A DNA stretch of 33,245 bases. Origin: a virus. Shown here piece after piece: positions 9,494 to 17,157 of this stretch. The first letter of the stretch is position 1, and each line of letters opens with the position of its first letter. The DNA is taken from the UHGV virus genome UHGV-0144531, one strand, 5' to 3'. Below the pieces are notes generated by a model. That model saw nothing but the letters and a program-made list of their open reading frames with translations, had not been told where the DNA came from and ran no database searches. Both the position numbers and the translations under genes were made by a program.

Positions 9494-9897
9494 ATGAATA
9501 TACCTTTAGCCTGCCTTACCCGCCATCGAATAACCGCTATTACCGACATTCACGGGGTTTTCACTATATCAGCGAAGTGGGGAAGGAATACCGGGAACAA
9601 GTAAAAGACATCATCGAATTATTAAATCTAGACATTAACCTGTCTTGCCGACTGGCAATCGCCATTTATGCCGCGCCGCCTGATAACCGGACCAGGGATC
9701 TTGATAATATCCCTAAATGCCTATTTGACAGCCTTACTTATGCCGGATTTTGGAAAGATGATGGACAAATTGACTCAATAAAAATTGTCCGCTGCCGGAA
9801 GGTAAAAGGCGGACGCTTGTTTATTAAGATCCGCGAACGCGGCGACCTACTACCGGATATTGACGAATACGCGACTAATATGTGGGGTGAGCAATGA
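9490..9897 (+). CDS. rusA: RusA-family Holliday junction resolvase
   Basis: LPYPPSNNRYY start, RTRDLDN and DDGQIDS acidic catalytic motifs. Confidence 0.85.
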   Translation: MNEYTFSLPYPPSNNRYYRHSRGFHYISEVGKEYREQVKDIIELLNLDINLSCRLAIAIYAAPPDNRTRDLDNIPKCLFDSLTYAGFWKDDGQIDSIKIVRCRKVKGGRLFIKIRERGDLLPDIDEYATNMWGEQ

Positions 9898-10076
9898 AAA
9901 ACGAAGTTAAAGATCTGCAAATAGATATTCAGCGCGATGAGCATGATTTAGCTACAGTCCGACAAATCCAGGCTTTTCACATGCGAGAATTACTTGCACT
10001 GAAAGAGTTTGAAAGAAAGCTAGTGCAATCAATATCTGATCGCAAAAGACTGGTTGCACGTTACGGGGGTAAATAA
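9894..10076 (+). CDS. Hypothetical protein (60 aa)
   Basis: ORF translationally coupled between rusA and Q. Confidence 0.45.
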   Translation: MKNEVKDLQIDIQRDEHDLATVRQIQAFHMRELLALKEFERKLVQSISDRKRLVARYGGK

Positions 10077-10798
10077 TGAATTTGGAATCTATTCTTAAAT
10101 TCCACCTCCCAAAATCACCGCGTTTGTCAGATGAAAGCCGGGGCACGTCCCCAGACTCGCTTAATACTACTGATGCACTAACCGCAGCAGGTATGGCGCA
10201 ATCGCGCGTAGAGCTTGGTTATAGCGCTTTTTTAGGGAAGATGGAATTATCGCAAGCCGAAAAACACAGGGCCGTAGTTTTGCTTACAGAGCGTTTAAGA
10301 GCTATGGCAAAAGATTACGAATACGTCATGGAGCTGGACGAGGACAAACGCAATGATCTTATTATTCTTGTTGCCGTTTTCGCGTTTCGGGATTACTGCC
10401 AGAGTGCCGCGACAGAAAAAACTTGTATGGATTGCGGCGGATATAAATTTACGTTTGACGACTACGGAGAAAAACACCTTTGCAAAAAATGCAAGGGGCA
10501 TGGAAAAGTTCGCAATCATTGTAAACGATGCAAAGGGCGCGGCGAGATACCGGATAAAGCAGCCAGTGAAGCAGCGGAAATGCCAGTGTTCAAAACGTGC
10601 CAGCATTGCGGCGGGCGCGGGTACTCGCGTTTCCCTGTAGATCTTGTCCGGCGTGCGGTTAATCAGCTTGTATTTCCGGTAAGCCGATCAACGTGGTGGA
10701 AGAAATACCGTGCTTTCTATGAAGACGCCATTGCTGAATTGTTCAAAGAAGAGGCGCAGGCTGATAACGAAATTAAACGAGTGACACGGGGTGAATAA
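10076..10798 (+). CDS. Q: Lambda-type late antiterminator Q
   Basis: N-terminus (LESILKFHLPKSPRLSD..AAGMAQS), zinc-finger cysteines and C-terminus (HKEE..ADNEI) align with lambda Q as I recall it. Confidence 0.9.
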   Translation: MNLESILKFHLPKSPRLSDESRGTSPDSLNTTDALTAAGMAQSRVELGYSAFLGKMELSQAEKHRAVVLLTERLRAMAKDYEYVMELDEDKRNDLIILVAVFAFRDYCQSAATEKTCMDCGGYKFTFDDYGEKHLCKKCKGHGKVRNHCKRCKGRGEIPDKAASEAAEMPVFKTCQHCGGRGYSRFPVDLVRRAVNQLVFPVSRSTWWKKYRAFYEDAIAELFKEEAQADNEIKRVTRGE

Positions 10799-10998
10799 TG
10801 AAACAACAAGAGATAAACATGAAAAAAGTGATTATTCTTTTTGAAGATTATAACGGTGATGCATGGTGCAAGTATTTAAGCGGTGTTGAAGCACGGTTGG
10901 CGCTAACGTTTATTGCCGCACTGGATGAAGGGGATTTTAACGCTATTCCGGTTAAGCCAGTAGAAATCTATCGTCGCGAGGTGAAGGATGAAGCCTAA
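10798..10998 (+). CDS. Hypothetical protein (66 aa)
   Basis: ORF; ATG overlaps the Q stop (TAATG). Confidence 0.45.
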   Translation: MKQQEINMKKVIILFEDYNGDAWCKYLSGVEARLALTFIAALDEGDFNAIPVKPVEIYRREVKDEA

Positions 10999-11257
10999 AT
11001 TAAAAGAACATCTATTCGCAAAGCTGGTTAATAATCTGACATTAACGGCGCGTGTGTGCAGTGATACGCAACAATTAGGGTCGTGGATAGTAAGGGATTT
11101 AAGAAAATACATCGAGCCAGGCGGGCCAGGTGACGAGATGACTATGGACAAGGCCATCAAGCGCCGTTCGGCTGATTGGTCAGTAAGTAACACAGGATTA
11201 ACCGGATACATCGAAGGCTACAACGACTGCTTACAGGATCATAGCGATGGCAAGTAA
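10988..11257 (+). CDS. Hypothetical protein (89 aa)
   Basis: ORF in co-directional string. Confidence 0.45.
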   Translation: MKPKLKEHLFAKLVNNLTLTARVCSDTQQLGSWIVRDLRKYIEPGGPGDEMTMDKAIKRRSADWSVSNTGLTGYIEGYNDCLQDHSDGK

Positions 11258-11555
11258 AGACCTACACTTGAACCTGAAAGGGGAATATTTCCACGCCATC
11301 CGGGCGGGAAAGAAGGTGGAGGAATACCGACTTTATAATGAATACTGGCGTAAACGCCTGGAGGGGCGGGAATATGAACGCCTGATCATTAAGCTGTGGT
11401 ATCCAGCCAGCCACGAAGCGCACCGGAACATAAACCTGCCTTATTTCGGGTACGAAGTAAAAACTATCACGCATCCATTATTCGGCCCTGATCCTGTTAA
11501 GGTATTCGCAATTAAATGTGATGTGAATTGGATGTTAAGGTGGGGGGAGCAATGA
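11247..11555 (+). CDS. Hypothetical protein, possibly ASCH/PUA-like
   Basis: N-terminal LHLNLKGEYFHAIRAGKKVEEYR resembles ASCH/DUF3850-type cores; from memory only. Confidence 0.4.
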   Translation: MASKDLHLNLKGEYFHAIRAGKKVEEYRLYNEYWRKRLEGREYERLIIKLWYPASHEAHRNINLPYFGYEVKTITHPLFGPDPVKVFAIKCDVNWMLRWGEQ

Positions 11556-11767
11556 AAAAAGCTGGCCTATCAATTAGCCGTGTATTGTGCGGTGACGAAA
11601 ACGAGATCCGCATAGAAATTAAATTTAGCACAGGTAAAGAGATAATCCTTTACACGACACCTGAAAACCTGACGCTGGCGCTTACTGGTAAATCTGAAAC
11701 GCCGTGCGACGTCCGGTTGCGCAATATTGAAATTAAGGAATTAAGGAAGGTGAAAGATGAAAAGTAG
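11552..11767 (+). CDS. Hypothetical protein (71 aa)
   Basis: ATG 11552 preceded by GGGGGGAG RBS; track start 11528 would overlap upstream gene. Confidence 0.4.
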   Translation: MKKAGLSISRVLCGDENEIRIEIKFSTGKEIILYTTPENLTLALTGKSETPCDVRLRNIEIKELRKVKDEK

Positions 11768-11957
11768 AATGAAACGCATGGTAAGAGCTTACGATAAGGC
11801 TTTAATGGTTTTTGATGATTTGCGACGCAATAAGCGTGAGCGTCGTAAATGGGCGCGTTTATTCGCGAAAGAATGGCACGAAGACGATGCGACAATCGAC
11901 TGTCAAAAAGACGCTGACGAATTAGCTGACGATAACGTTTATTATATGATGTGGTGA
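11757..11957 (+). CDS. Hypothetical protein (66 aa)
   Basis: ORF in co-directional string. Confidence 0.4.
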   Translation: MKSRMKRMVRAYDKALMVFDDLRRNKRERRKWARLFAKEWHEDDATIDCQKDADELADDNVYYMMW

Positions 11958-11961
11958 CAAC

Positions 11962-12327
11962 ATGCAAATAATCATTGATTACCTTTGCCATGCAGCAAAT
12001 ACACTTTTCGGTTTTTATCAACAACCTTTCCTTAAAGAGTGGGATTCGATGTTAAACGATATCCTCGACAAAGGATTAATAATGGAGGTTGACGAGCTTA
12101 CAATCAAAATTAATTATGAAGGTGAAGAATATCAAATTTGGGTGGGTAATAGATGGTATTCATACGGTCATATTTATTCAATTGGTGGTAAGTTCATTAA
12201 AAGAAACCAGGAATTCAGACCGCGCTTCCGCACAATGCGCCGACTACATAACCTGCATATGAATCTATTTGAAGACCAGGAAGCACGGGAACTATTCAAG
12301 ATCTACGGAGATAAATCATGGAGCTAA
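11962..12327 (+). CDS. Hypothetical protein (121 aa)
   Basis: ORF; AT-rich by eye. Confidence 0.45.
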   Translation: MQIIIDYLCHAANTLFGFYQQPFLKEWDSMLNDILDKGLIMEVDELTIKINYEGEEYQIWVGNRWYSYGHIYSIGGKFIKRNQEFRPRFRTMRRLHNLHMNLFEDQEARELFKIYGDKSWS

Positions 12328-12548
12328 AAATCTGGCAGGCTATCGACGTAGTTGATAATGAGTTAAGTATGTTTGCCACTGACGGAAAGCGCGCGGTGAT
12401 CGCCACATGGACGCGTAACCATGATGATATCGCTTTTCGTCGCAAGGCTGCGGAGTGGCTTTTCTCTGATGGCGGCTACACGATGAACATCGCCCAGCTT
12501 GCCAGAATGAAGGATGAAAAGCTGGTAGACAGCTACACAACTGCATAG
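12318..12548 (+). CDS. Hypothetical protein (76 aa)
   Basis: ORF in co-directional string. Confidence 0.45.
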   Translation: MELKIWQAIDVVDNELSMFATDGKRAVIATWTRNHDDIAFRRKAAEWLFSDGGYTMNIAQLARMKDEKLVDSYTTA

Positions 12549-12558
12549 CGGGGTAAAT

Positions 12559-12792
12559 ATGCGTATCTATGAACACAAGCGGGATAAAACCCGCTTTTTT
12601 GTTCGTGCTGGCGTGGCGTACCAGTATCACGAATGTGGATATATTGAGGCGCTTGCTTACGACCTGGATTTCGAACAAGAAAAAGAATGGTTTGACTTTA
12701 AGATTTACCGGAAGCGCAAGCCAACGCGCGACGAGCGCCACGCTATCCGTGATTTTCTAATCAGCATTGACCGCTGGGAGGCAGAAGAATGA
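12559..12792 (+). CDS. Hypothetical protein (77 aa)
   Basis: ORF in co-directional string. Confidence 0.45.
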   Translation: MRIYEHKRDKTRFFVRAGVAYQYHECGYIEALAYDLDFEQEKEWFDFKIYRKRKPTRDERHAIRDFLISIDRWEAEE

Positions 12793-13082
12793 GAACGAAG
12801 AAAGTGGCAGATCAGAAAGCGTTAGTTATCGCTACAACGGACGTATCGTTATTCACGAAGGGCGAAGAAATAGATCTTAAATTGCTTTTCGGTATGTTTG
12901 AGCCACACGAAAAGCCGTGGTTTGTTCATGAAGACAAACAAGGCAATATGCGCGTAGTAGTGCCGGACAAAAACAGCGACATATTTTTTGCTATTCCAGA
13001 CCCGTTGCATGACGGAGAAATGCTGGCGGTATTGCTTATCGCTGATGCTGTTACTTACAAGGGAAAGAAATATGAAAGTTAA
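12789..13082 (+). CDS. Hypothetical protein (97 aa)
   Basis: ORF in co-directional string. Confidence 0.45.
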   Translation: MRTKKVADQKALVIATTDVSLFTKGEEIDLKLLFGMFEPHEKPWFVHEDKQGNMRVVVPDKNSDIFFAIPDPLHDGEMLAVLLIADAVTYKGKKYES

Positions 13083-13299
13083 ATTCTTGCACGATCACGG
13101 CTACCCGTCATTGAAACAGGTTGTTGGTAAGGTCGTTAATGTCGTTCATAGCGATGAGATTACTTGCATGATTAATGGTGCTGATCTCATTGCCGCTGGT
13201 GCTGATGACCATTACATAAATCCGGCATGGTCGTATACGTTCAGCCTGGGCGACTTCGTTGGCGATAAGGGACGCGGGCTGGAAGTAGTCGAGGGTTAA
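13072..13299 (+). CDS. Hypothetical protein (75 aa)
   Basis: ATG 13072 (MKVKFLHDHG); the longer track ORF from 12988 overlaps the upstream gene. Confidence 0.4.
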   Translation: MKVKFLHDHGYPSLKQVVGKVVNVVHSDEITCMINGADLIAAGADDHYINPAWSYTFSLGDFVGDKGRGLEVVEG

Positions 13300-13303
13300 T
13301 ATT

Positions 13304-13552
13304 ATGGACGTTTACGAGGATGTTTGCCTGGCACCTTCATCTTATAGCTTTTATTTTCTGATAAATGGAAAGGCTTATAGATGCGATTCTGACGGGGTGA
13401 GAGAAGAAAAGCTGTTTTGCACTAAAGGATACCTGGATGATTTGGTTTTTGCCGGGATATTTCGTAAACGCCCGGCTAACCTGGAAGAAGAAATGCTGAT
13501 CGAGGTAATTAAAAATGAAAATCAAGGTAAGTTATTTCCGGGCGAAAGATAA
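13304..13552 (+). CDS. Hypothetical protein (82 aa)
   Basis: ORF in co-directional string. Confidence 0.4.
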   Translation: MDVYEDVCLAPSSYSFYFLINGKAYRCDSDGVREEKLFCTKGYLDDLVFAGIFRKRPANLEEEMLIEVIKNENQGKLFPGER

Positions 13553-13766
13553 GGCAACTGGAAAGCGGATGGCGATCCTGGTTAACGAGGCAGGATATAT
13601 GTTTGTCCTGTACCCGTGGTGCATAGCTAGCCATAACGATTATTATCGCCGTCACGCTGCGCGGAGTGCGGTAGGGATGAAGGGTTGGCAACCTCGCGAC
13701 ATGGAAAACTATTGTGAATGGAAATTAGTGGCAAAATACACGGTCGATTATAAAGGGGTTTTCTGA
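13515..13766 (+). CDS. Hypothetical protein (83 aa)
   Basis: ORF in co-directional string. Confidence 0.4.
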   Translation: MKIKVSYFRAKDKATGKRMAILVNEAGYMFVLYPWCIASHNDYYRRHAARSAVGMKGWQPRDMENYCEWKLVAKYTVDYKGVF

Positions 13767-13978
13767 TGCAAGTTAAATGCTCATACTCAAGCAATGACAG
13801 TGTTTTCACGATTGGGAGTATTTATGACGTTCACATCGTTTATGGCAATGAAGCACACACAATGAGTAATTGCCTTGCCTTGATTGATAATCATGACGAA
13901 ATATGGGTATTCAGGCCGAGCTATGAAGGCGGTGAAATATCCGGTGTAGGTTTTGCTGCCAGCTTTGAACGTTATTAA
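13766..13978 (+). CDS. Small protein, paralog family member A (70 aa)
   Basis: Shares C.YS...F..G.IY.V and D..G..W.F motifs with the next three ORFs. Confidence 0.45.
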   Translation: MQVKCSYSSNDSVFTIGSIYDVHIVYGNEAHTMSNCLALIDNHDEIWVFRPSYEGGEISGVGFAASFERY

Positions 13979-13988
13979 AGGGGCAACA

Positions 13989-14246
13989 ATGAAACATTTA
14001 TATTTTGAGGTATTGCAGACGCGCGACCGCAATATTTTTGAAGAAGGGAAGATCTATTGCGGCGTTCAACTCCACGGCGCACCGGGCGGTGATGGTGCAA
14101 TGGCGATAACTGGCGATGATGATAAAGTTTATTTCGCTTATGTTAGCCATATCAATAACGCCGCTGGTTTGTATATTTATCGCATAGTGCATGATTTCCG
14201 TGAGATCGCGGAGTTTTGCGCCCGCGAAGGCAGTAAACCGGAATAA
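13989..14246 (+). CDS. Small protein, paralog family member B (85 aa)
   Basis: ATG 13989 with AAAGGGG RBS; FEEGKIYCGV and GDDDKVYFAY motifs. Confidence 0.45.
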   Translation: MKHLYFEVLQTRDRNIFEEGKIYCGVQLHGAPGGDGAMAITGDDDKVYFAYVSHINNAAGLYIYRIVHDFREIAEFCAREGSKPE

Positions 14247-14256
14247 GTGAGGTGCT

Positions 14257-14496
14257 ATGAATCGGAAACATAGATACCAGTGCACATACTCACGATGCAG
14301 CGCGTTTTTTAAGAATGGCAAGATCTACGAGGTTGACGCGGCATTGGTTGACGCAAAGGATCAGGAATATATTCATGCCATTACTGACGACCAGGGGCAG
14401 TTATGGCGATTTTATAAGATGGGTTGTGGCACGGCGCTTGTTTATGCGCGTGCTGGTGGTGGTGCTTTTGCTGCGTTTTCGTATGTAGGGGTATGA
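14257..14496 (+). CDS. Small protein, paralog family member C (79 aa)
   Basis: CTYSRCSAFFKNGKIYEVDA and TDDQGQLWRFY motifs. Confidence 0.45.
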   Translation: MNRKHRYQCTYSRCSAFFKNGKIYEVDAALVDAKDQEYIHAITDDQGQLWRFYKMGCGTALVYARAGGGAFAAFSYVGV

Positions 14497-14717
14497 AAAT
14501 GATTTTAACGTGTAACGAATCGAAATTGGGCTGTTTTGAGGAAGGCGTACAGTACACGGCTGAAAAACCGATGGGATTGTCTCCTAAATTTCCGTTTATC
14601 GTCGTGACTGACACTTACGGTCACTTATGGTATGCAGGGCCGCTAGGCGGTATTGGTCGTTATGTTGTCCGTAGTTCGGATGGGGCGATGAAGGTTACTT
14701 TTACGGAAGAAGCATAA
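14493..14717 (+). CDS. Small protein, paralog family member D (74 aa)
   Basis: ATG 14493 with AGGGG RBS; LTCNESKLGCFEEGVQYTAE and TDTYGHLWYAG motifs. Confidence 0.45.
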   Translation: MKMILTCNESKLGCFEEGVQYTAEKPMGLSPKFPFIVVTDTYGHLWYAGPLGGIGRYVVRSSDGAMKVTFTEEA

Positions 14718-14777
14718 ATGTGATCTACCCTTCAAAGTTTACAAAATGGCATTGTTCTGGTGGCGCCATTTTGTTAT
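14714..14777. promoter_or_regulatory. Palindromic element TTTACAAAATGG-N16-CCATTTTGTTAT with adjacent GATCACATTT (reverse orientation)
   Basis: Intergenic; aaatgtgatc 14716-14725; tttacaaaatgg 14738-14749; ccattttgttat 14766-14777; TATAAA-like -10 inside the right arm. Confidence 0.5.
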
Positions 14778-14815
14778 AAAGAAGCTGAAGAGAGAACGAT
14801 GCGGAGGGTAGAAAA

Positions 14816-15088
14816 ATGAAACGCTGGATTAACGAAGAAACAAAAGCCCGCTTCAATGCAATTTGGGATCTGATTGAAAAAGAGGACGGCGTTTCTAGTC
14901 CCTACCTGAACAATCTTGAGTTCCACTATGTAGAAGCGATGAACGCAGAGCATGACCACCAAGTCGGTGCTGATGAATTCGCCAAAAAATACGGCTTCGA
15001 TGATGCAAACCATATGATTAACAACGTGGTGATGCAGGCAGAGGAAGACTACGAATGCAAATCACTTGAATTCGCACGTATGGCATAA
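14816..15088 (+). CDS. Hypothetical protein (90 aa)
   Basis: First ORF downstream of the palindromic element. Confidence 0.45.
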   Translation: MKRWINEETKARFNAIWDLIEKEDGVSSPYLNNLEFHYVEAMNAEHDHQVGADEFAKKYGFDDANHMINNVVMQAEEDYECKSLEFARMA

Positions 15089-15098
15089 GGGGGAAACC

Positions 15099-15239
15099 AT
15101 GAACGCTAACGCTAAATATCCGGCCTGGGTTTTCGAACTGTACGCAAGATACTTTGAATTACTGGCACAAGGTGAAGAAGCATTAAGCATTGACGAGTAC
15201 GCGGAGTGCTTAGGGTTTAAAGGAGGCGAAGAAGCATAA
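15099..15239 (+). CDS. Small hypothetical protein (46 aa)
   Basis: ATG with AAGGGGG RBS; below ORF-track cutoff. Confidence 0.3.
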   Translation: MNANAKYPAWVFELYARYFELLAQGEEALSIDEYAECLGFKGGEEA

Positions 15240-15282
15240 AACACGGGGCAGGATGGCCCCATCAAATCAGAAGGGTGTAATC

Positions 15283-15582
15283 ATGAAAAGCGCTAAATTT
15301 ATTGCTTGCTGTTTTGTTGAAGTTCCTAACGATGATGTTTTCTGTAATTATGAATTTAAAGACAGCTTAGGCAGATCTCACATTGTTGTTGGCAAACGTG
15401 GTGACTGGTTATATATCACTGATGGAGACAGGATCTTCACTAAAAACCAGTTGTTAATAATAAAGTCAAAAAATGATGAAATACAGGTCGGTATTATGGG
15501 GATCATAAGTTATCACGCCAGTTTATTGTTAAAACACGATGTGGTAAATAAAGCGCGTAGCTTACCTGGTGCTGAATTTTAA
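15283..15582 (+). CDS. Hypothetical protein (99 aa)
   Basis: ATG 15283 with AAGGGTG RBS; visibly AT-rich coding sequence. Confidence 0.45.
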   Translation: MKSAKFIACCFVEVPNDDVFCNYEFKDSLGRSHIVVGKRGDWLYITDGDRIFTKNQLLIIKSKNDEIQVGIMGIISYHASLLLKHDVVNKARSLPGAEF

Positions 15583-15605
15583 TTCCTTACGAAGGAGAAT
15601 AATCA

Positions 15606-15929
15606 ATGTCTAAATTTATCAGTGTTAAAGTTTTCCGTGGATCTTTTCCAGAAGATAAAGAAATTGGACAATTCGCAGGTAAACGCGGCGCATGTTTCCG
15701 TGTGGCTACTGAAGACGACGCGCACGTTAAACGCTTCCACGTATCTGAACCGCCTTTTGACGCAGACCATCTTGAAGACCTGGATAGAATTAAAAGCCTA
15801 GTTTTTGCCTATCTGATGTTCCAGGGTATCGCTGATATGGAAGTGGAATTGCTTGGCGCTGAACTGGTTGCAGAATACAAAATGACTGAAGCAGAAAACA
15901 GAGGGGTTGAAATTGAGCGCATCAAATAA
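15606..15929 (+). CDS. Hypothetical acidic protein (107 aa)
   Basis: ORF with AAGGAG RBS; Asp/Glu-rich. Confidence 0.45.
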   Translation: MSKFISVKVFRGSFPEDKEIGQFAGKRGACFRVATEDDAHVKRFHVSEPPFDADHLEDLDRIKSLVFAYLMFQGIADMEVELLGAELVAEYKMTEAENRGVEIERIK

Positions 15930-16164
15930 GCTGTATAAAGTCAGATGTAAACGCGAATACCCTGGCTTTACGATTGGTTGCGAATATCTGGGCCATATTG
16001 GGTACGGCCCTTTCGGTGAGTTGGGAATGAATACGATTGACGACGACGGCGACAGCAGGACGCTCGATCTTGATACGGATGACTTCGAATATATCCCTCC
16101 AGTTACTTACCGTGCCGTAGATGATTTCCTGGCTGAACAAGAAGATGATGAAGAGGATGATTAA
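15907..16164 (+). CDS. Small protein with highly acidic C-terminal half (85 aa)
   Basis: C-terminal 45 residues roughly 40 percent Asp/Glu, ending DDFLAEQEDDEEDD. Confidence 0.45.
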   Translation: MKLSASNKLYKVRCKREYPGFTIGCEYLGHIGYGPFGELGMNTIDDDGDSRTLDLDTDDFEYIPPVTYRAVDDFLAEQEDDEEDD

Positions 16165-16166
16165 CT

Positions 16167-16307
16167 ATGGATGACGAATACGTTAACAATTTTATTGTTA
16201 TGTTTCTTAGTGAGAACTGGCGCATGTTTGAACATTATTGTTTTGAGCGCGGGGAAAATGCTGAAGAAATCTATCAATATTTAGGCGGGGAGAAAGAGGA
16301 TGATTGA
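16167..16307 (+). CDS. Small hypothetical protein (46 aa)
   Basis: ATG immediately after upstream stop; below ORF-track cutoff. Confidence 0.3.
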   Translation: MDDEYVNNFIVMFLSENWRMFEHYCFERGENAEEIYQYLGGEKEDD

Positions 16308-16500
16308 ATGTCTTATCTTTGCTGTATTTCTCCTTTATATCGCTGGCGCTATCCTGATGTCTTGTTTCATCAAATGTAACGATCTCGATCGTGGTGGCCT
16401 TGAGATTCCTTTCTGGCCTGTAGCGGTGTTTATCGCTTTCTTCGGTGCAACGCTAGTGCAGATTAAGCGAGCCATTAAGGAGCGTAAAAATGGGAAATAG
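16300..16500 (+). CDS. Small membrane protein (66 aa, 2 TM helices)
   Basis: Two hydrophobic segments (LIFAVFLLYIAGAILMSCFI; FWPVAVFIAFFGATLV) and basic C-terminus. Confidence 0.4.
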   Translation: MIECLIFAVFLLYIAGAILMSCFIKCNDLDRGGLEIPFWPVAVFIAFFGATLVQIKRAIKERKNGK

Positions 16501-16714
16501 CGACCATCAATATGACGGCGTTTATCAGTCATTGGTGTCACGCGCTTATTATCGCCTTGAAGGTGAACACGTAATGATGCGATCACGCCAGTTTGAACCG
16601 TGGCATGAAACGGTTTTACCTGTGACAGCGAAAGAAGTTATCACGATGTTTAATCACGGACATTGGAGCAAGATTGGCGATATTAAGTTCAGGATGTTTA
16701 AAGAGGGCGGTTAA
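16490..16714 (+). CDS. Hypothetical protein (74 aa)
   Basis: ORF in co-directional string. Confidence 0.4.
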   Translation: MGNSDHQYDGVYQSLVSRAYYRLEGEHVMMRSRQFEPWHETVLPVTAKEVITMFNHGHWSKIGDIKFRMFKEGG

Positions 16715-16897
16715 ATGATTGAAGATGGTATATACGCCGTGAACCTCATTGATGAAATGTTTTACCGCGTGGAGGGTAATGATATTCGTATCAGTATCGA
16801 TGGTGGCGAGTGGAAAGAGCCATTCATGGATATGACGCGGGAAATAATTGAAATCATGCTTTATAACGGCGACGTGGTGAAGGTTAGCGACCTGTGA
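16715..16897 (+). CDS. Hypothetical protein (60 aa)
   Basis: ORF in co-directional string. Confidence 0.4.
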   Translation: MIEDGIYAVNLIDEMFYRVEGNDIRISIDGGEWKEPFMDMTREIIEIMLYNGDVVKVSDL

Positions 16898-17070
16898 ACG
16901 AGATCGAAGACGGCATCTATTTGCATAAGGTATTTAACATCGTCTATTTACTTAAAGGTAATAAGGTGATGATAAGACCTGATGACGATCCACATTGGGA
17001 ATCAAGCGACATGGATCGGTGGCATATGCAAATGTTGTTTGATAATGGCCTGATATACAAAACTGCGTAA
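16894..17070 (+). CDS. Hypothetical protein (58 aa, GTG start)
   Basis: GTG overlapping upstream stop; shows the same EDGIY / RISIDGGEW-like pattern as 16715-16897. Confidence 0.25.
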   Translation: MNEIEDGIYLHKVFNIVYLLKGNKVMIRPDDDPHWESSDMDRWHMQMLFDNGLIYKTA

Positions 17071-17077
17071 GCCGTAT

Positions 17078-17106
17078 TTGTAGAGCGTAAACAAACGGAT
17101 TAAAAT
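17078..17106 (+). promoter_or_regulatory. Sigma70-like promoter, candidate late promoter (PR'-like)
   Basis: -35 TTGTAG (17078-17083), 17-bp spacer, -10 TAAAAT (17101-17106); a terminator lies about 30 nt downstream and the lysis cassette follows. Confidence 0.45.
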
Positions 17107-17134
17107 ATTTCCTAACAATGCGAAATTGTAATTA

Positions 17135-17157
17135 CCCGGCCCCCGCGCCGGGTTTTT
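17135..17157 (+). terminator. Rho-independent terminator (tR'-like) upstream of the holin gene
   Basis: cccggc-ccccgc-gccggg hairpin followed by ttttt. Confidence 0.6.

What the first reader, a model, noticed from the sequence alone, without database searches (positions are those of the whole stretch)
13766..14717. Tandem array of four diverged paralogous small proteins
Four consecutive genes (13766-13978, 13989-14246, 14257-14496, 14493-14717) encode 70-85 aa proteins that share an aligned pattern: an N-terminal C.YS or C.ES, then F..G.(I/V)Y.V (for example FFKNGKIYEV, FEEGKIYCGV, FTIGSIYDVH, FEEGVQYTAE), then (T/G)DD..G.(L/I/V)(W/Y).(F/Y) (TDDQGQLWRFY, TDTYGHLWYAG, DNHDEIWVFRP, GDDDKVYFAYV). 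Tandem diversified paralogs usually signal arms-race functions. I do not recognise the family.
Basis: seen in the sequence. Interest (0 to 1): 0.55.

Follow-up and report, generated by a model that had tools for sequence, protein, structure and literature searches.

The report
Tandem array of small β-barrel phage proteins
Four neighbouring small genes in this temperate E. coli phage are real, anciently diverged copies of one gene, and they are predicted to fold like Gp54 of phage Bas11, a rare six-stranded β-barrel whose only known activity is to trigger the bacterial CapRel defence; what they do for the phage is unknown.

Summary
The four ORFs sit exactly where stated, each with a ribosome-binding site. 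Each one scores above all 2000 shuffled versions of itself against an HMM built from the other subfamilies (per-sequence E from 8e-14 to 3e-5). Orthologues are under purifying selection (dN/dS 0.05-0.21).

The window is a relative of the mEp021 (mEpimmI) temperate coliphages. The array lies between the Q-like antiterminator gene and the lysis cassette, directly after a conserved 83-aa gene. In 18 related genomes it holds 0 to 5 copies, always in the same order: [E, E2, H or F] - A - B - C - D or D'.

Function is inferred, not shown: dispensable, co-transcribed, probably delayed-early accessory proteins that each bind a host or defence protein. The arms-race reading is only partly supported. 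There is cassette gain and loss and one variable patch in A, but no positive selection.

The parts
13766..13978 (+). Paralogue A, 70 aa, acidic (pI 4.6). It has the motifs KCSYS, FTIGSIY and IDNHDEIWVF, and ends ASFERY.
   Evidence: ORF and ribosome-binding site. Leave-one-out HMM E 1.9e-10, with 0 of 2000 shuffles reaching it. hhalign to C 1e-5 and to E 1.7e-8. It hits phrog_31142, the E type, at 8e-5. dN/dS is 0.21 overall and 0.49 in codons 26-48.
13989..14246 (+). Paralogue B, 85 aa, pI 5.5. It lacks the N-terminal Cys and has a longer C-terminal part.
   Evidence: ORF and ribosome-binding site. Leave-one-out HMM E 1.7e-5, 0 of 2000 shuffles. hhalign to C 1.1e-5. Homologues occur only in E. 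coli prophages, at 69% identity or more. dN/dS 0.17.
14257..14496 (+). Paralogue C, 79 aa, basic (pI 8.8). It is the member modelled with the highest confidence.
14493..14717 (+). Paralogue D, 74 aa, pI 5.7. Its start overlaps the stop of C (ATGA). Relatives carry an allelic D' form with a different C-terminal half.
15907..16164 (+). Probable distant fifth member (G; phrog_25234). The N-terminal half has YKVRCKREYPGFTIGCEY and IDDDGDSRTL, and it is followed by a very acidic tail (pI 4.1).
   Evidence: Leave-one-out HMM E 1.3e-4, 0 of 2000 shuffles. It is the best non-array hit of the family HMM among 398 window ORFs, at E 0.063. P0063 from an E. coli prophage is an F::G chimera whose junction falls at the aligned DDxG motif. 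Membership is not certain.
13515..13766 (+). Conserved 83-aa upstream anchor gene (phrog_38609). The array starts directly after it in the 16 of 18 surveyed genomes that carry the array. It is context, not a family member.
   Evidence: Its stop overlaps the start of A (ATGA at 13763-13766).
14741..14779 (+). Hairpin followed by a T-run directly after D. The corresponding site is annotated as a Rho-independent terminator (T7) in phage mEp044. It marks the 3' end of the array module.
   Evidence: Sequence. mEp044 annotation. The fold is -18.3 kcal/mol for the 83-nt stretch, with z -1.46, which is not significant on its own. The consensus scan did not pick it up.
10076..10798 (+). Context: the Q-like antitermination protein gene, 3 kb upstream of the array.
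   Evidence: The orthologue is annotated 'putative late gene regulator Q' in mEp021 and 'antitermination protein' in RefSeq prophages.
17134..17153 (+). Context: a strong intrinsic-terminator-like site just upstream of the holin gene, followed by the lysis cassette to about 18325. It occupies the position of terminator TERM_5 in mEp021. Because of it the array is read as lying upstream of the late transcription unit.
   Evidence: PMC11893012 lists t5 among the experimentally demonstrated terminators of mEp021.

Best explanation
The four genes are members of one protein family that has diversified into at least ten sequence types (A, A2, B, C, D, D', E, E2, F, H). The family forms an ordered tandem array with a variable number of copies in mEp021-type (mEpimmI) temperate coliphages.

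Shown here:
- The genes are co-oriented and tightly packed, with 8-12 nt spacers or ATGA overlaps, and each stop codon region carries the ribosome-binding site of the next gene.
- Each is kept by purifying selection.
- Whole genes are gained, lost and swapped at gene boundaries, while slot order stays fixed.
- The modelled members (C and D) fold as a roughly 70-aa six-stranded β-barrel with a long β1-β2 loop. The closest solved structure is Gp54 of phage Bas11.

Inferred, not shown:
- The array lies between the Q-like gene and the terminator and late region in front of the holin gene, and it has no promoter of its own. It is therefore most likely transcribed as part of the early-right operon under N-like (Gp17-type) antitermination, that is, delayed-early.
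- The proteins are soluble and cytoplasmic (no signal peptide or membrane segment was seen on reading the sequences; no predictor was run), mostly acidic, and dispensable (natural zero-copy phages exist).
- They most likely act as small protein-binding modules. Each paralogue would bind a different host or defence protein through the β2-β4 face and its variable loop, in host takeover or counter-defence. As with Gp54, some may themselves be sensed by defence systems.
For: Paralogy: hhalign between subfamily profiles. Leave-one-out HMMs with 0 of 2000 shuffles reaching the real score for A, B, C, D, E and F. Invariant F..G..Y plus a C-terminal F.

Real genes: ribosome-binding sites. dN/dS 0.05-0.21, against 0.10 and 0.37 for the flanking genes.

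Array architecture: 0 to 5 copies in 18 genomes, always after the g13515 orthologue and in the same slot order. Junctions lie at the stop-RBS-start boundaries. Chimeric and truncated forms occur in prophages.

Gp54 of Bas11: a six-stranded β-barrel with a prominent β1-β2 loop and 'very rare' topology, non-essential, of unknown function, and a direct binder and activator of CapRelSJ46. Its authors suggest it may inhibit another defence system (PMC11578894).

Context: the Q-like gene, the holin and the terminator. The same fold is common among small uncharacterised proteins of enterobacterial siphophages (BFVD). Bas11 itself has three further ORFs that hit the family HMM.

Variable surface: A codons 26-48 have dN/dS 0.49, against 0.10 in the flanks.
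Against: There is no functional evidence of any kind for these proteins. The only characterised protein with this fold also has no known function of its own.

Sequence homology to Gp54 is not detectable. The family HMM against Gp54 is matched or beaten by 916 of 5000 shuffles. Profile-profile comparison against six Gp54 homologues gives E 0.21. The link is therefore fold-level only, and it rests on predicted models, one of them of low confidence. A and B were not modelled.

Expression timing is inferred from gene order alone.

Whole-gene dN/dS is low, so there is no direct sign of an arms race.

D's link to the family is weaker than the others, with its best pairwise profile E at 0.004.
Confidence: 0.6

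Rival explanations
1. The four ORFs are unrelated small β-rich proteins. The shared motifs (F..G..Y and DDxGxxW) are generic β-hairpin signatures that arise by convergence.
For: Direct pairwise BLASTP is weak. In the search of 1.84 billion representative proteins, the family profile also picks up RCC1-type and other β-propeller repeat proteins through the DDxGxhW hairpin. This shows that part of the motif is generic. D reaches only 0.004-0.05 in pairwise profile comparisons.
Against: Leave-one-out HMMs separate every member from 2000 shuffles of itself. Alignments are collinear over the whole length and include the C-terminal A.F strand. C and D models, built from different alignments, retrieve the same rare fold as top hit. 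The genes always occupy the same locus in a fixed order. In-register chimeras between types exist.
Confidence: 0.05
2. They are minor virion or assembly proteins, for example decoration or head-associated small β-barrels, rather than host-directed accessory proteins.
For: The orthologue of the nearby gene 13304-13552 is annotated 'virion structural protein' in mEp021. One BFVD structural neighbour is named 'putative minor capsid protein'. P0088, a distant two-domain relative, hits a PHROG labelled virion structural protein.
Against: The array lies in the regulatory and early region, upstream of the lysis genes and far from the head and tail modules. Viable phage mEp021 and prophage MIN12 have zero copies, and mEp554 has one, so no essential structural role is possible. 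The database labels are automatic and untested.
Confidence: 0.07
3. They are small nucleic-acid-binding β-barrels (SH3, Sm or KOW-like) that act as RNA or DNA regulators of phage or host gene expression.
Against: A, B, D, D' and F are acidic (pI 4.6-5.7), and no conserved basic patch exists. The conserved positions are hydrophobic core and turn residues. The closest structure, Gp54, binds a protein (PMC11578894).
Confidence: 0.1
4. They are prophage-expressed lysogenic-conversion or superinfection-exclusion 'morons' that protect the lysogen, rather than lytic-cycle proteins.
For: The position between the Q-like gene and the lysis genes is the classic moron and toxin slot of lambdoid phages (general knowledge). 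Presence and absence vary among prophages.
Against: No promoter-like site lies in front of the array or between its genes on the + strand. The region has fewer promoter-like sites than its shuffles, 11 against 17.6. The genes are translationally packed with their neighbours. No PADLOC defence model matches. The exclusion function of this phage group was assigned to lipoproteins encoded elsewhere (PMC11893012).
Confidence: 0.12

Closest known systems
Gp54 of Escherichia phage Bas11 (JohannLBurckhardt), PDB 9AXB and 9ERV; phrog_7421; direct trigger of the CapRelSJ46 fused toxin-antitoxin defence (Zhang et al., Nature 2024, PMC11578894)
   Different: No significant sequence similarity. It belongs to a different PHROG. 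Gp54 is a single gene in virulent Drexlerviridae, not a tandem array in a temperate phage. CapRel activation has not been tested for the window proteins, and even close Gp54 homologues do not activate CapRel (PMC11578894).
phrog_31142 (unknown function), which corresponds to subtype E of this array (mEp044_58 and mEp010_62)
   Same: E matches it at 1.3e-37, A at 8e-5 and C at 8e-7. It belongs to the same array and the same family.
   Different: B and D do not reach it. It covers one subtype only and carries no annotation.
Other PHROGs of small enterobacterial phage proteins with a C...F..G..Y...D..G motif: phrog_4927, 9122, 6261, 10169, 16833, 9181, 2684 and 10580 (all unknown function)
   Same: Marginal but recurrent hits from many members; 12 of 28 hit phrog_4927, with a best E of 0.002. 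Bas11 ORFs 0071, 0048 and 0079 hit the family HMM at 8e-4 to 8e-3. BFVD neighbours reach TM-scores up to 0.88.
   Different: The similarities are near the detection limit. Those proteins are dispersed single genes or domains of larger proteins; P0088, for example, has two such domains and a membrane anchor. They are not ordered arrays.
SH3-like small β-barrels and PliC/MliC-type lysozyme inhibitors
   Different: The scores are much lower than for Gp54. SH3 domains have five strands. PliC and MliC are eight-stranded periplasmic lipoproteins with signal peptides, and I saw no signal peptide in the window proteins.

Membership tests
Gp54(Bas11)-like six-stranded β-barrel fold | [quoted passage not shown] | tested here: met
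Gp54(Bas11) sequence family (phrog_7421) | Detectable sequence homology to Gp54 and its Drexlerviridae homologues | tested here: not met
   The family HMM against Gp54 scores -0.7 bits, and 916 of 5000 shuffles do as well or better. hhalign of the family against a six-member Gp54 alignment gives E 0.21, with only the F..G element aligned. Gp54 hits phrog_7421, and none of the window proteins do.
Gp54(Bas11) function: trigger of CapRelSJ46 | Direct binding to the pseudo-zinc-finger antitoxin domain of CapRelSJ46 and activation of it | not testable with these tools
   This needs co-expression toxicity and binding assays. Close Gp54 homologues already fail to activate CapRel (PMC11578894), so activity cannot be assumed.
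Single paralogous family (A, B, C, D) | Each member is significantly similar to a profile built from the others | tested here: met
   Leave-one-out HMM E values are 1.9e-10 (A), 1.7e-5 (B), 8e-14 (C) and 2.9e-5 (D), with 0 of 2000 shuffles reaching any of them. hhalign gives A-C 1e-5, B-C 1.1e-5 and D-E 0.004.
Arms-race (diversifying-selection) gene family | dN/dS above 1 in at least part of the gene among orthologues | tested here: not met
   Whole-gene dN/dS is 0.05-0.21. The highest segment is A codons 26-48, at 0.49. Only pairwise Nei-Gojobori estimates on 6-10 sequences were made. No site model was run.
Arms-race (diversifying-selection) gene family | Rapid gene gain, loss and cassette exchange among close relatives | tested here: met
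   Copy number is 0 to 5, with alternative types in slot 1 (E, E2, H, F) and slot 5 (D, D'), in 18 genomes. Frameshifted and chimeric copies occur.
Known anti-phage defence proteins (PADLOC) | Match to a defence-system model | tested here: not met
   No hits at E up to 1.
Pfam / NCBIfam curated families | Match above the curated threshold | tested here: not met
   Pfam gives only two sub-threshold chance-level hits. NCBIfam gives none.

The most novel reading that the evidence does not exclude
The array is a combinatorial battery of Gp54-like β-barrels. Each slot would encode a binder, either an inhibitor or a decoy, for a different bacterial immune sensor or host factor. Temperate mEpimmI phages would shuffle whole cassettes to match the defence repertoire of their hosts. 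The same proteins would in turn be the molecular patterns that CapRel-type sensors evolve to detect. This would turn a fold described as very rare and known from one protein into a widespread family of phage counter-defence proteins and defence triggers.
Probability: 0.2. Interest if true: 0.7.

Novelty: new variant of a known kind. Interest (0 to 1): 0.45.

Why it matters

The models here suggest that the same fold is the building block of an ordered array in a prevalent group of gut temperate coliphages. The array's copy number ranges from 0 to 5. By structure search, the fold also occurs in many small uncharacterised proteins of enterobacterial siphophages.

This offers a natural genetic system for asking what these barrels do and whether defence systems sense them. 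Zero-copy and five-copy phages exist, and slots carry alternative alleles.

It remains a family of hypothetical proteins, and no function has been shown.

Tried and rejected
- Pfam, NCBIfam and PADLOC scans of the four proteins and of G found nothing usable.
- A profile search of PDB sequences gave only chance-level hits (titin Ig, AcrIC4, MORN; E 0.075 or worse) and did not find 9AXB.
- Two word-indexed searches with B and D found only E. coli prophage orthologues at about 70% identity or more.
- The search of 1.84 billion representative proteins with the family profile found no new small relatives apart from P0088. Its large hits are β-propeller repeat proteins (RCC1 and others) matched through the repeated DDxGxhW hairpin. 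I treat these as motif-level matches, not homologues.
- Sequence tests of a link to Gp54, with a single sequence and with a six-member profile, were negative. The F..G and G..W resemblance that I saw by eye is not statistically supported.
- I saw no consistent Cys/His pattern, so a zinc-binding reading was not pursued.
- The hairpin after D is not significantly more stable than shuffles.
- The mEpimmI paper does not discuss these genes.

Full report
**1. Observation**

The window has four consecutive + strand ORFs at exactly the coordinates given: A 13766-13978 (70 aa), B 13989-14246 (85 aa), C 14257-14496 (79 aa) and D 14493-14717 (74 aa). Each starts with ATG behind a purine-rich ribosome-binding site. 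A-B and B-C are separated by 10 nt, and C and D overlap in ATGA.

The N-terminal C.YS / C.ES motif is absent from B.

**2. Is the similarity more than chance?**

- Within-window BLASTP is weak: A-C 5.5e-4, B-C 0.08, C-D 0.09.
- I collected orthologues from related phages and from a 5.8-billion-protein collection. I then compared subfamily profiles with hhalign. Results were A-C 1e-5, B-C 1.1e-5, A-E 1.7e-8, C-E 2.2e-5, A-F 1.9e-4 and E-F 1.4e-4. D was weakest, at 0.004 against E and 0.02-0.05 against the others.
- In leave-one-subfamily-out HMM tests, every member scored above all 2000 composition-matched shuffles of itself. Per-sequence E values were 1.9e-10 (A), 1.7e-5 (B), 8e-14 (C) and 2.9e-5 (D).
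- The joint alignment is collinear, with invariant F..G..Y and a conserved C-terminal F.
- Against all 398 six-frame ORFs of the window, the family HMM finds the four genes at 1e-24 to 1e-29. The next hits are 15907-16164 (E 0.063) and 12789-13082 (E 0.11).

The four genes are diverged paralogues, at 15-30% identity.

**3. Are they real genes?**

Among 6-10 orthologues per subtype, dN/dS is 0.05-0.21. The flanking genes give 0.10 and 0.37. The genes are therefore maintained by purifying selection.

In A, the central codons 26-48 have dN/dS of 0.49, against 0.10-0.11 on either side. This segment occurs in two or three allelic forms.

**4. Where the array sits**

The window is about 84% identical at the nucleotide level to the mEp021-group (mEpimmI) temperate coliphages mEp044, mEp010, MagusPhagus, mEp554 and mEp021. 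PMC11893012 describes this group.

The array lies about 3 kb downstream of the Q-like antitermination gene (10076-10798) and about 2.4 kb upstream of a strong terminator-like site (17134-17153) that precedes the holin, lysozyme and spanin genes. That site corresponds in position to TERM_5 of mEp021; PMC11893012 lists t5 among its experimentally demonstrated terminators.

The whole Q-to-holin interval is filled with about 25 small, tightly packed + strand genes. No promoter-like site precedes the array on the + strand, and the region has fewer promoter-like matches than its shuffles.

From this I infer, but have not shown, that the array is read as part of the early-right operon under N-like antitermination, that is, as delayed-early genes. 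A hairpin with a T-run directly follows D (14741-14779). It is annotated as a terminator in mEp044 but is not significantly stable on its own.

**5. Copy-number survey**

I scanned 18 genomes: the window, five phages and twelve E. coli prophages. Where present, the array always starts directly after the conserved 83-aa gene (13515-13766 in the window), and the slot order is fixed: [E, E2, H or F] - A or A2 - B - C - D or D'.

| Copies | Genomes |
|---|---|
| 0 | mEp021, MIN12 |
| 1 | mEp554 |
| 3 | mEp044, mEp010, UMNK88, GF66.2, MLI107, N1286, LSU61, STEC308 |
| 4 | the window, M1/5, GN05505 |
| 5 | MagusPhagus, Ecol_244, 09-00049, PAR (A frameshifted) |

- Exchanges happen at the stop-RBS-start junctions.
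- Prophage collections also hold truncated and chimeric forms. Examples are E::D', fusions of C or F to the C-termini of downstream genes, and an F::G chimera joined at the aligned DDxG motif.
- A further member, mEp044_46, sits upstream of the Q-like gene in mEp044 (E 1.3e-7).
- Only 35 of 5426 complete E. coli genomes carry this region, and 11 have all four genes.

**6. Fold**

Foldseek against BFVD found many uncharacterised proteins of 65-80 aa (and some larger ones) from enterobacterial siphophages, mostly Drexlerviridae. TM-scores relative to the target ranged up to 0.88.

**7. What is known about Gp54**

According to PMC11578894:
- Gp54 of Bas11 is a 66-aa, non-essential protein of unknown function.
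- It binds the antitoxin domain of CapRelSJ46 directly and so activates that defence. On binding it partly unfolds and contacts CapRel through β2-β5 and the β1-β2 loop, which refolds into a new strand.
- The authors speculate that it may inhibit another defence system.

I retrieved its sequence from MZ501085.1. It shows no significant sequence similarity to the window family. Against the family HMM, 916 of 5000 shuffles score at least as well. A six-member Gp54 profile gives hhalign E 0.21, with only the F..G element at the start of β2 aligned. It also belongs to a different PHROG, 7421. The link is therefore at the level of fold only.

Three other Bas11 ORFs (0071, 0048, 0079) do hit the family HMM at 8e-4 to 8e-3 among 598 ORFs. 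Many members give recurrent marginal hits to a handful of unknown-function PHROGs (4927, 9122, 6261, 10169, 16833). This suggests a diffuse superfamily of small phage barrels.

**8. Other database results**

There is no Pfam, NCBIfam or PADLOC match, and no PDB match by sequence.

The search of 1.84 billion representative proteins with the family profile found only the same E. coli prophage clusters and the two-domain, membrane-anchored P0088. It also returned large β-propeller repeat proteins (RCC1 and others), matched through the repeated DDxGxhW hairpin. I regard these as motif-level matches.

**9. Mechanism**

Shown:
- an ordered tandem family of variable copy number, under purifying selection;
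- a predicted Gp54-like barrel fold;
- dispensability, since natural zero-copy phages exist;
- acidic to mildly basic proteins with pI 4.6-8.8.

On reading the sequences I saw no signal peptide or membrane segment; no predictor was run.

Inferred:
- delayed-early co-transcription;
- action as small protein-binding modules, each paralogue with its own host or defence target, through the β2-β4 face. The variable patch of A lies in that region, and the equivalent region of Gp54 contacts CapRel.

I put about 0.9 on the paralogous-family and common-fold part, and about 0.3 on the binding-module or counter-defence function. The overall confidence of 0.6 is for the combined statement with its inferred steps marked.

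Rival readings are listed with their tests: convergent motifs, virion proteins, nucleic-acid binders and lysogen-expressed morons. None is better supported.

**10. Verdict**

The arms-race interpretation is only partly supported: there is cassette turnover, but no positive selection.

The family is unannotated, and its sequence-detectable members are confined to mEpimmI-type E. coli phages and prophages. The new points are the ordered array organisation and the fold-level link to Gp54 of Bas11.

I rate this a new variant of a known kind, of moderate interest, because no function is known for any member of the fold.

Noticed in passing
window 16490-16714 and 16715-16897 (+): A second adjacent pair of small paralogues (74 and 60 aa; BLASTP E 8e-6 within the window). 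mEp021_45 looks by eye like the second one. Function is unknown.
   Followed up: partly
window 12789-13082 (+): This 97-aa protein (phrog_33175) is the second-best non-array hit of the family HMM (E 0.11 among 398 ORFs). It has an LFTKGEEI...HEDKQGNMRVV pattern and may be another very distant barrel of the same kind.
   Followed up: partly
window 10798-17118 (+): The interval between the Q-like gene and the holin gene is about 6.3 kb and holds about 25 small genes. In mEp021 the same interval is about 2 kb. This is a hypervariable accessory region, and many prophage copies carry deletions that fuse neighbouring genes in frame (P0028, P0041, P0067, P0071).
   Followed up: partly
L001 254-490 (mEp044_46, upstream of the Q-like gene): A 78-aa member of the same family (family HMM E 1.3e-7) lies outside the array, between the Holliday-junction resolvase gene and the Q-like gene. 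The window has an unrelated 60-aa gene (9894-10076) at that position.
   Followed up: partly
L006 (phage Bas11) 45147-45338 (+), 37578-37943 (-), 47216-47653 (+): Three Bas11 ORFs other than gp54 (bas11_0071, _0048 and _0079; PHROGs 9181, 2684 and 13504) hit the window family HMM at E 8e-4 to 8e-3 and show the KC...F..G..Y...D..G pattern. Bas11 may therefore carry several barrels of this kind.
   Followed up: partly
P0088 (212 aa, phrog_10580; from the search of representative proteins): This protein has two tandem domains of the family pattern (MKFEC..F.WGKVY and MKFECIS..FTVGKIYDV..TDDTG) followed by a C-terminal hydrophobic segment. It looks like a membrane-anchored, duplicated version of the barrel. 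Its source phage was not identified.
   Followed up: no
window 14315-14488 (+), alternative frame inside gene C: This 57-aa alternative-frame ORF inside C is read through into D' in the mEp010 annotation (a 133-aa 'protein') and appears in several frameshifted database proteins (P0038, P0054, P0058). It is an annotation or frameshift artefact rather than a gene.
   Followed up: yes
L008 3026-3240 (E. coli PAR prophage): The A copy is split into two ORFs by a frameshift, so it is a decaying array member in an otherwise five-slot array.
   Followed up: yes
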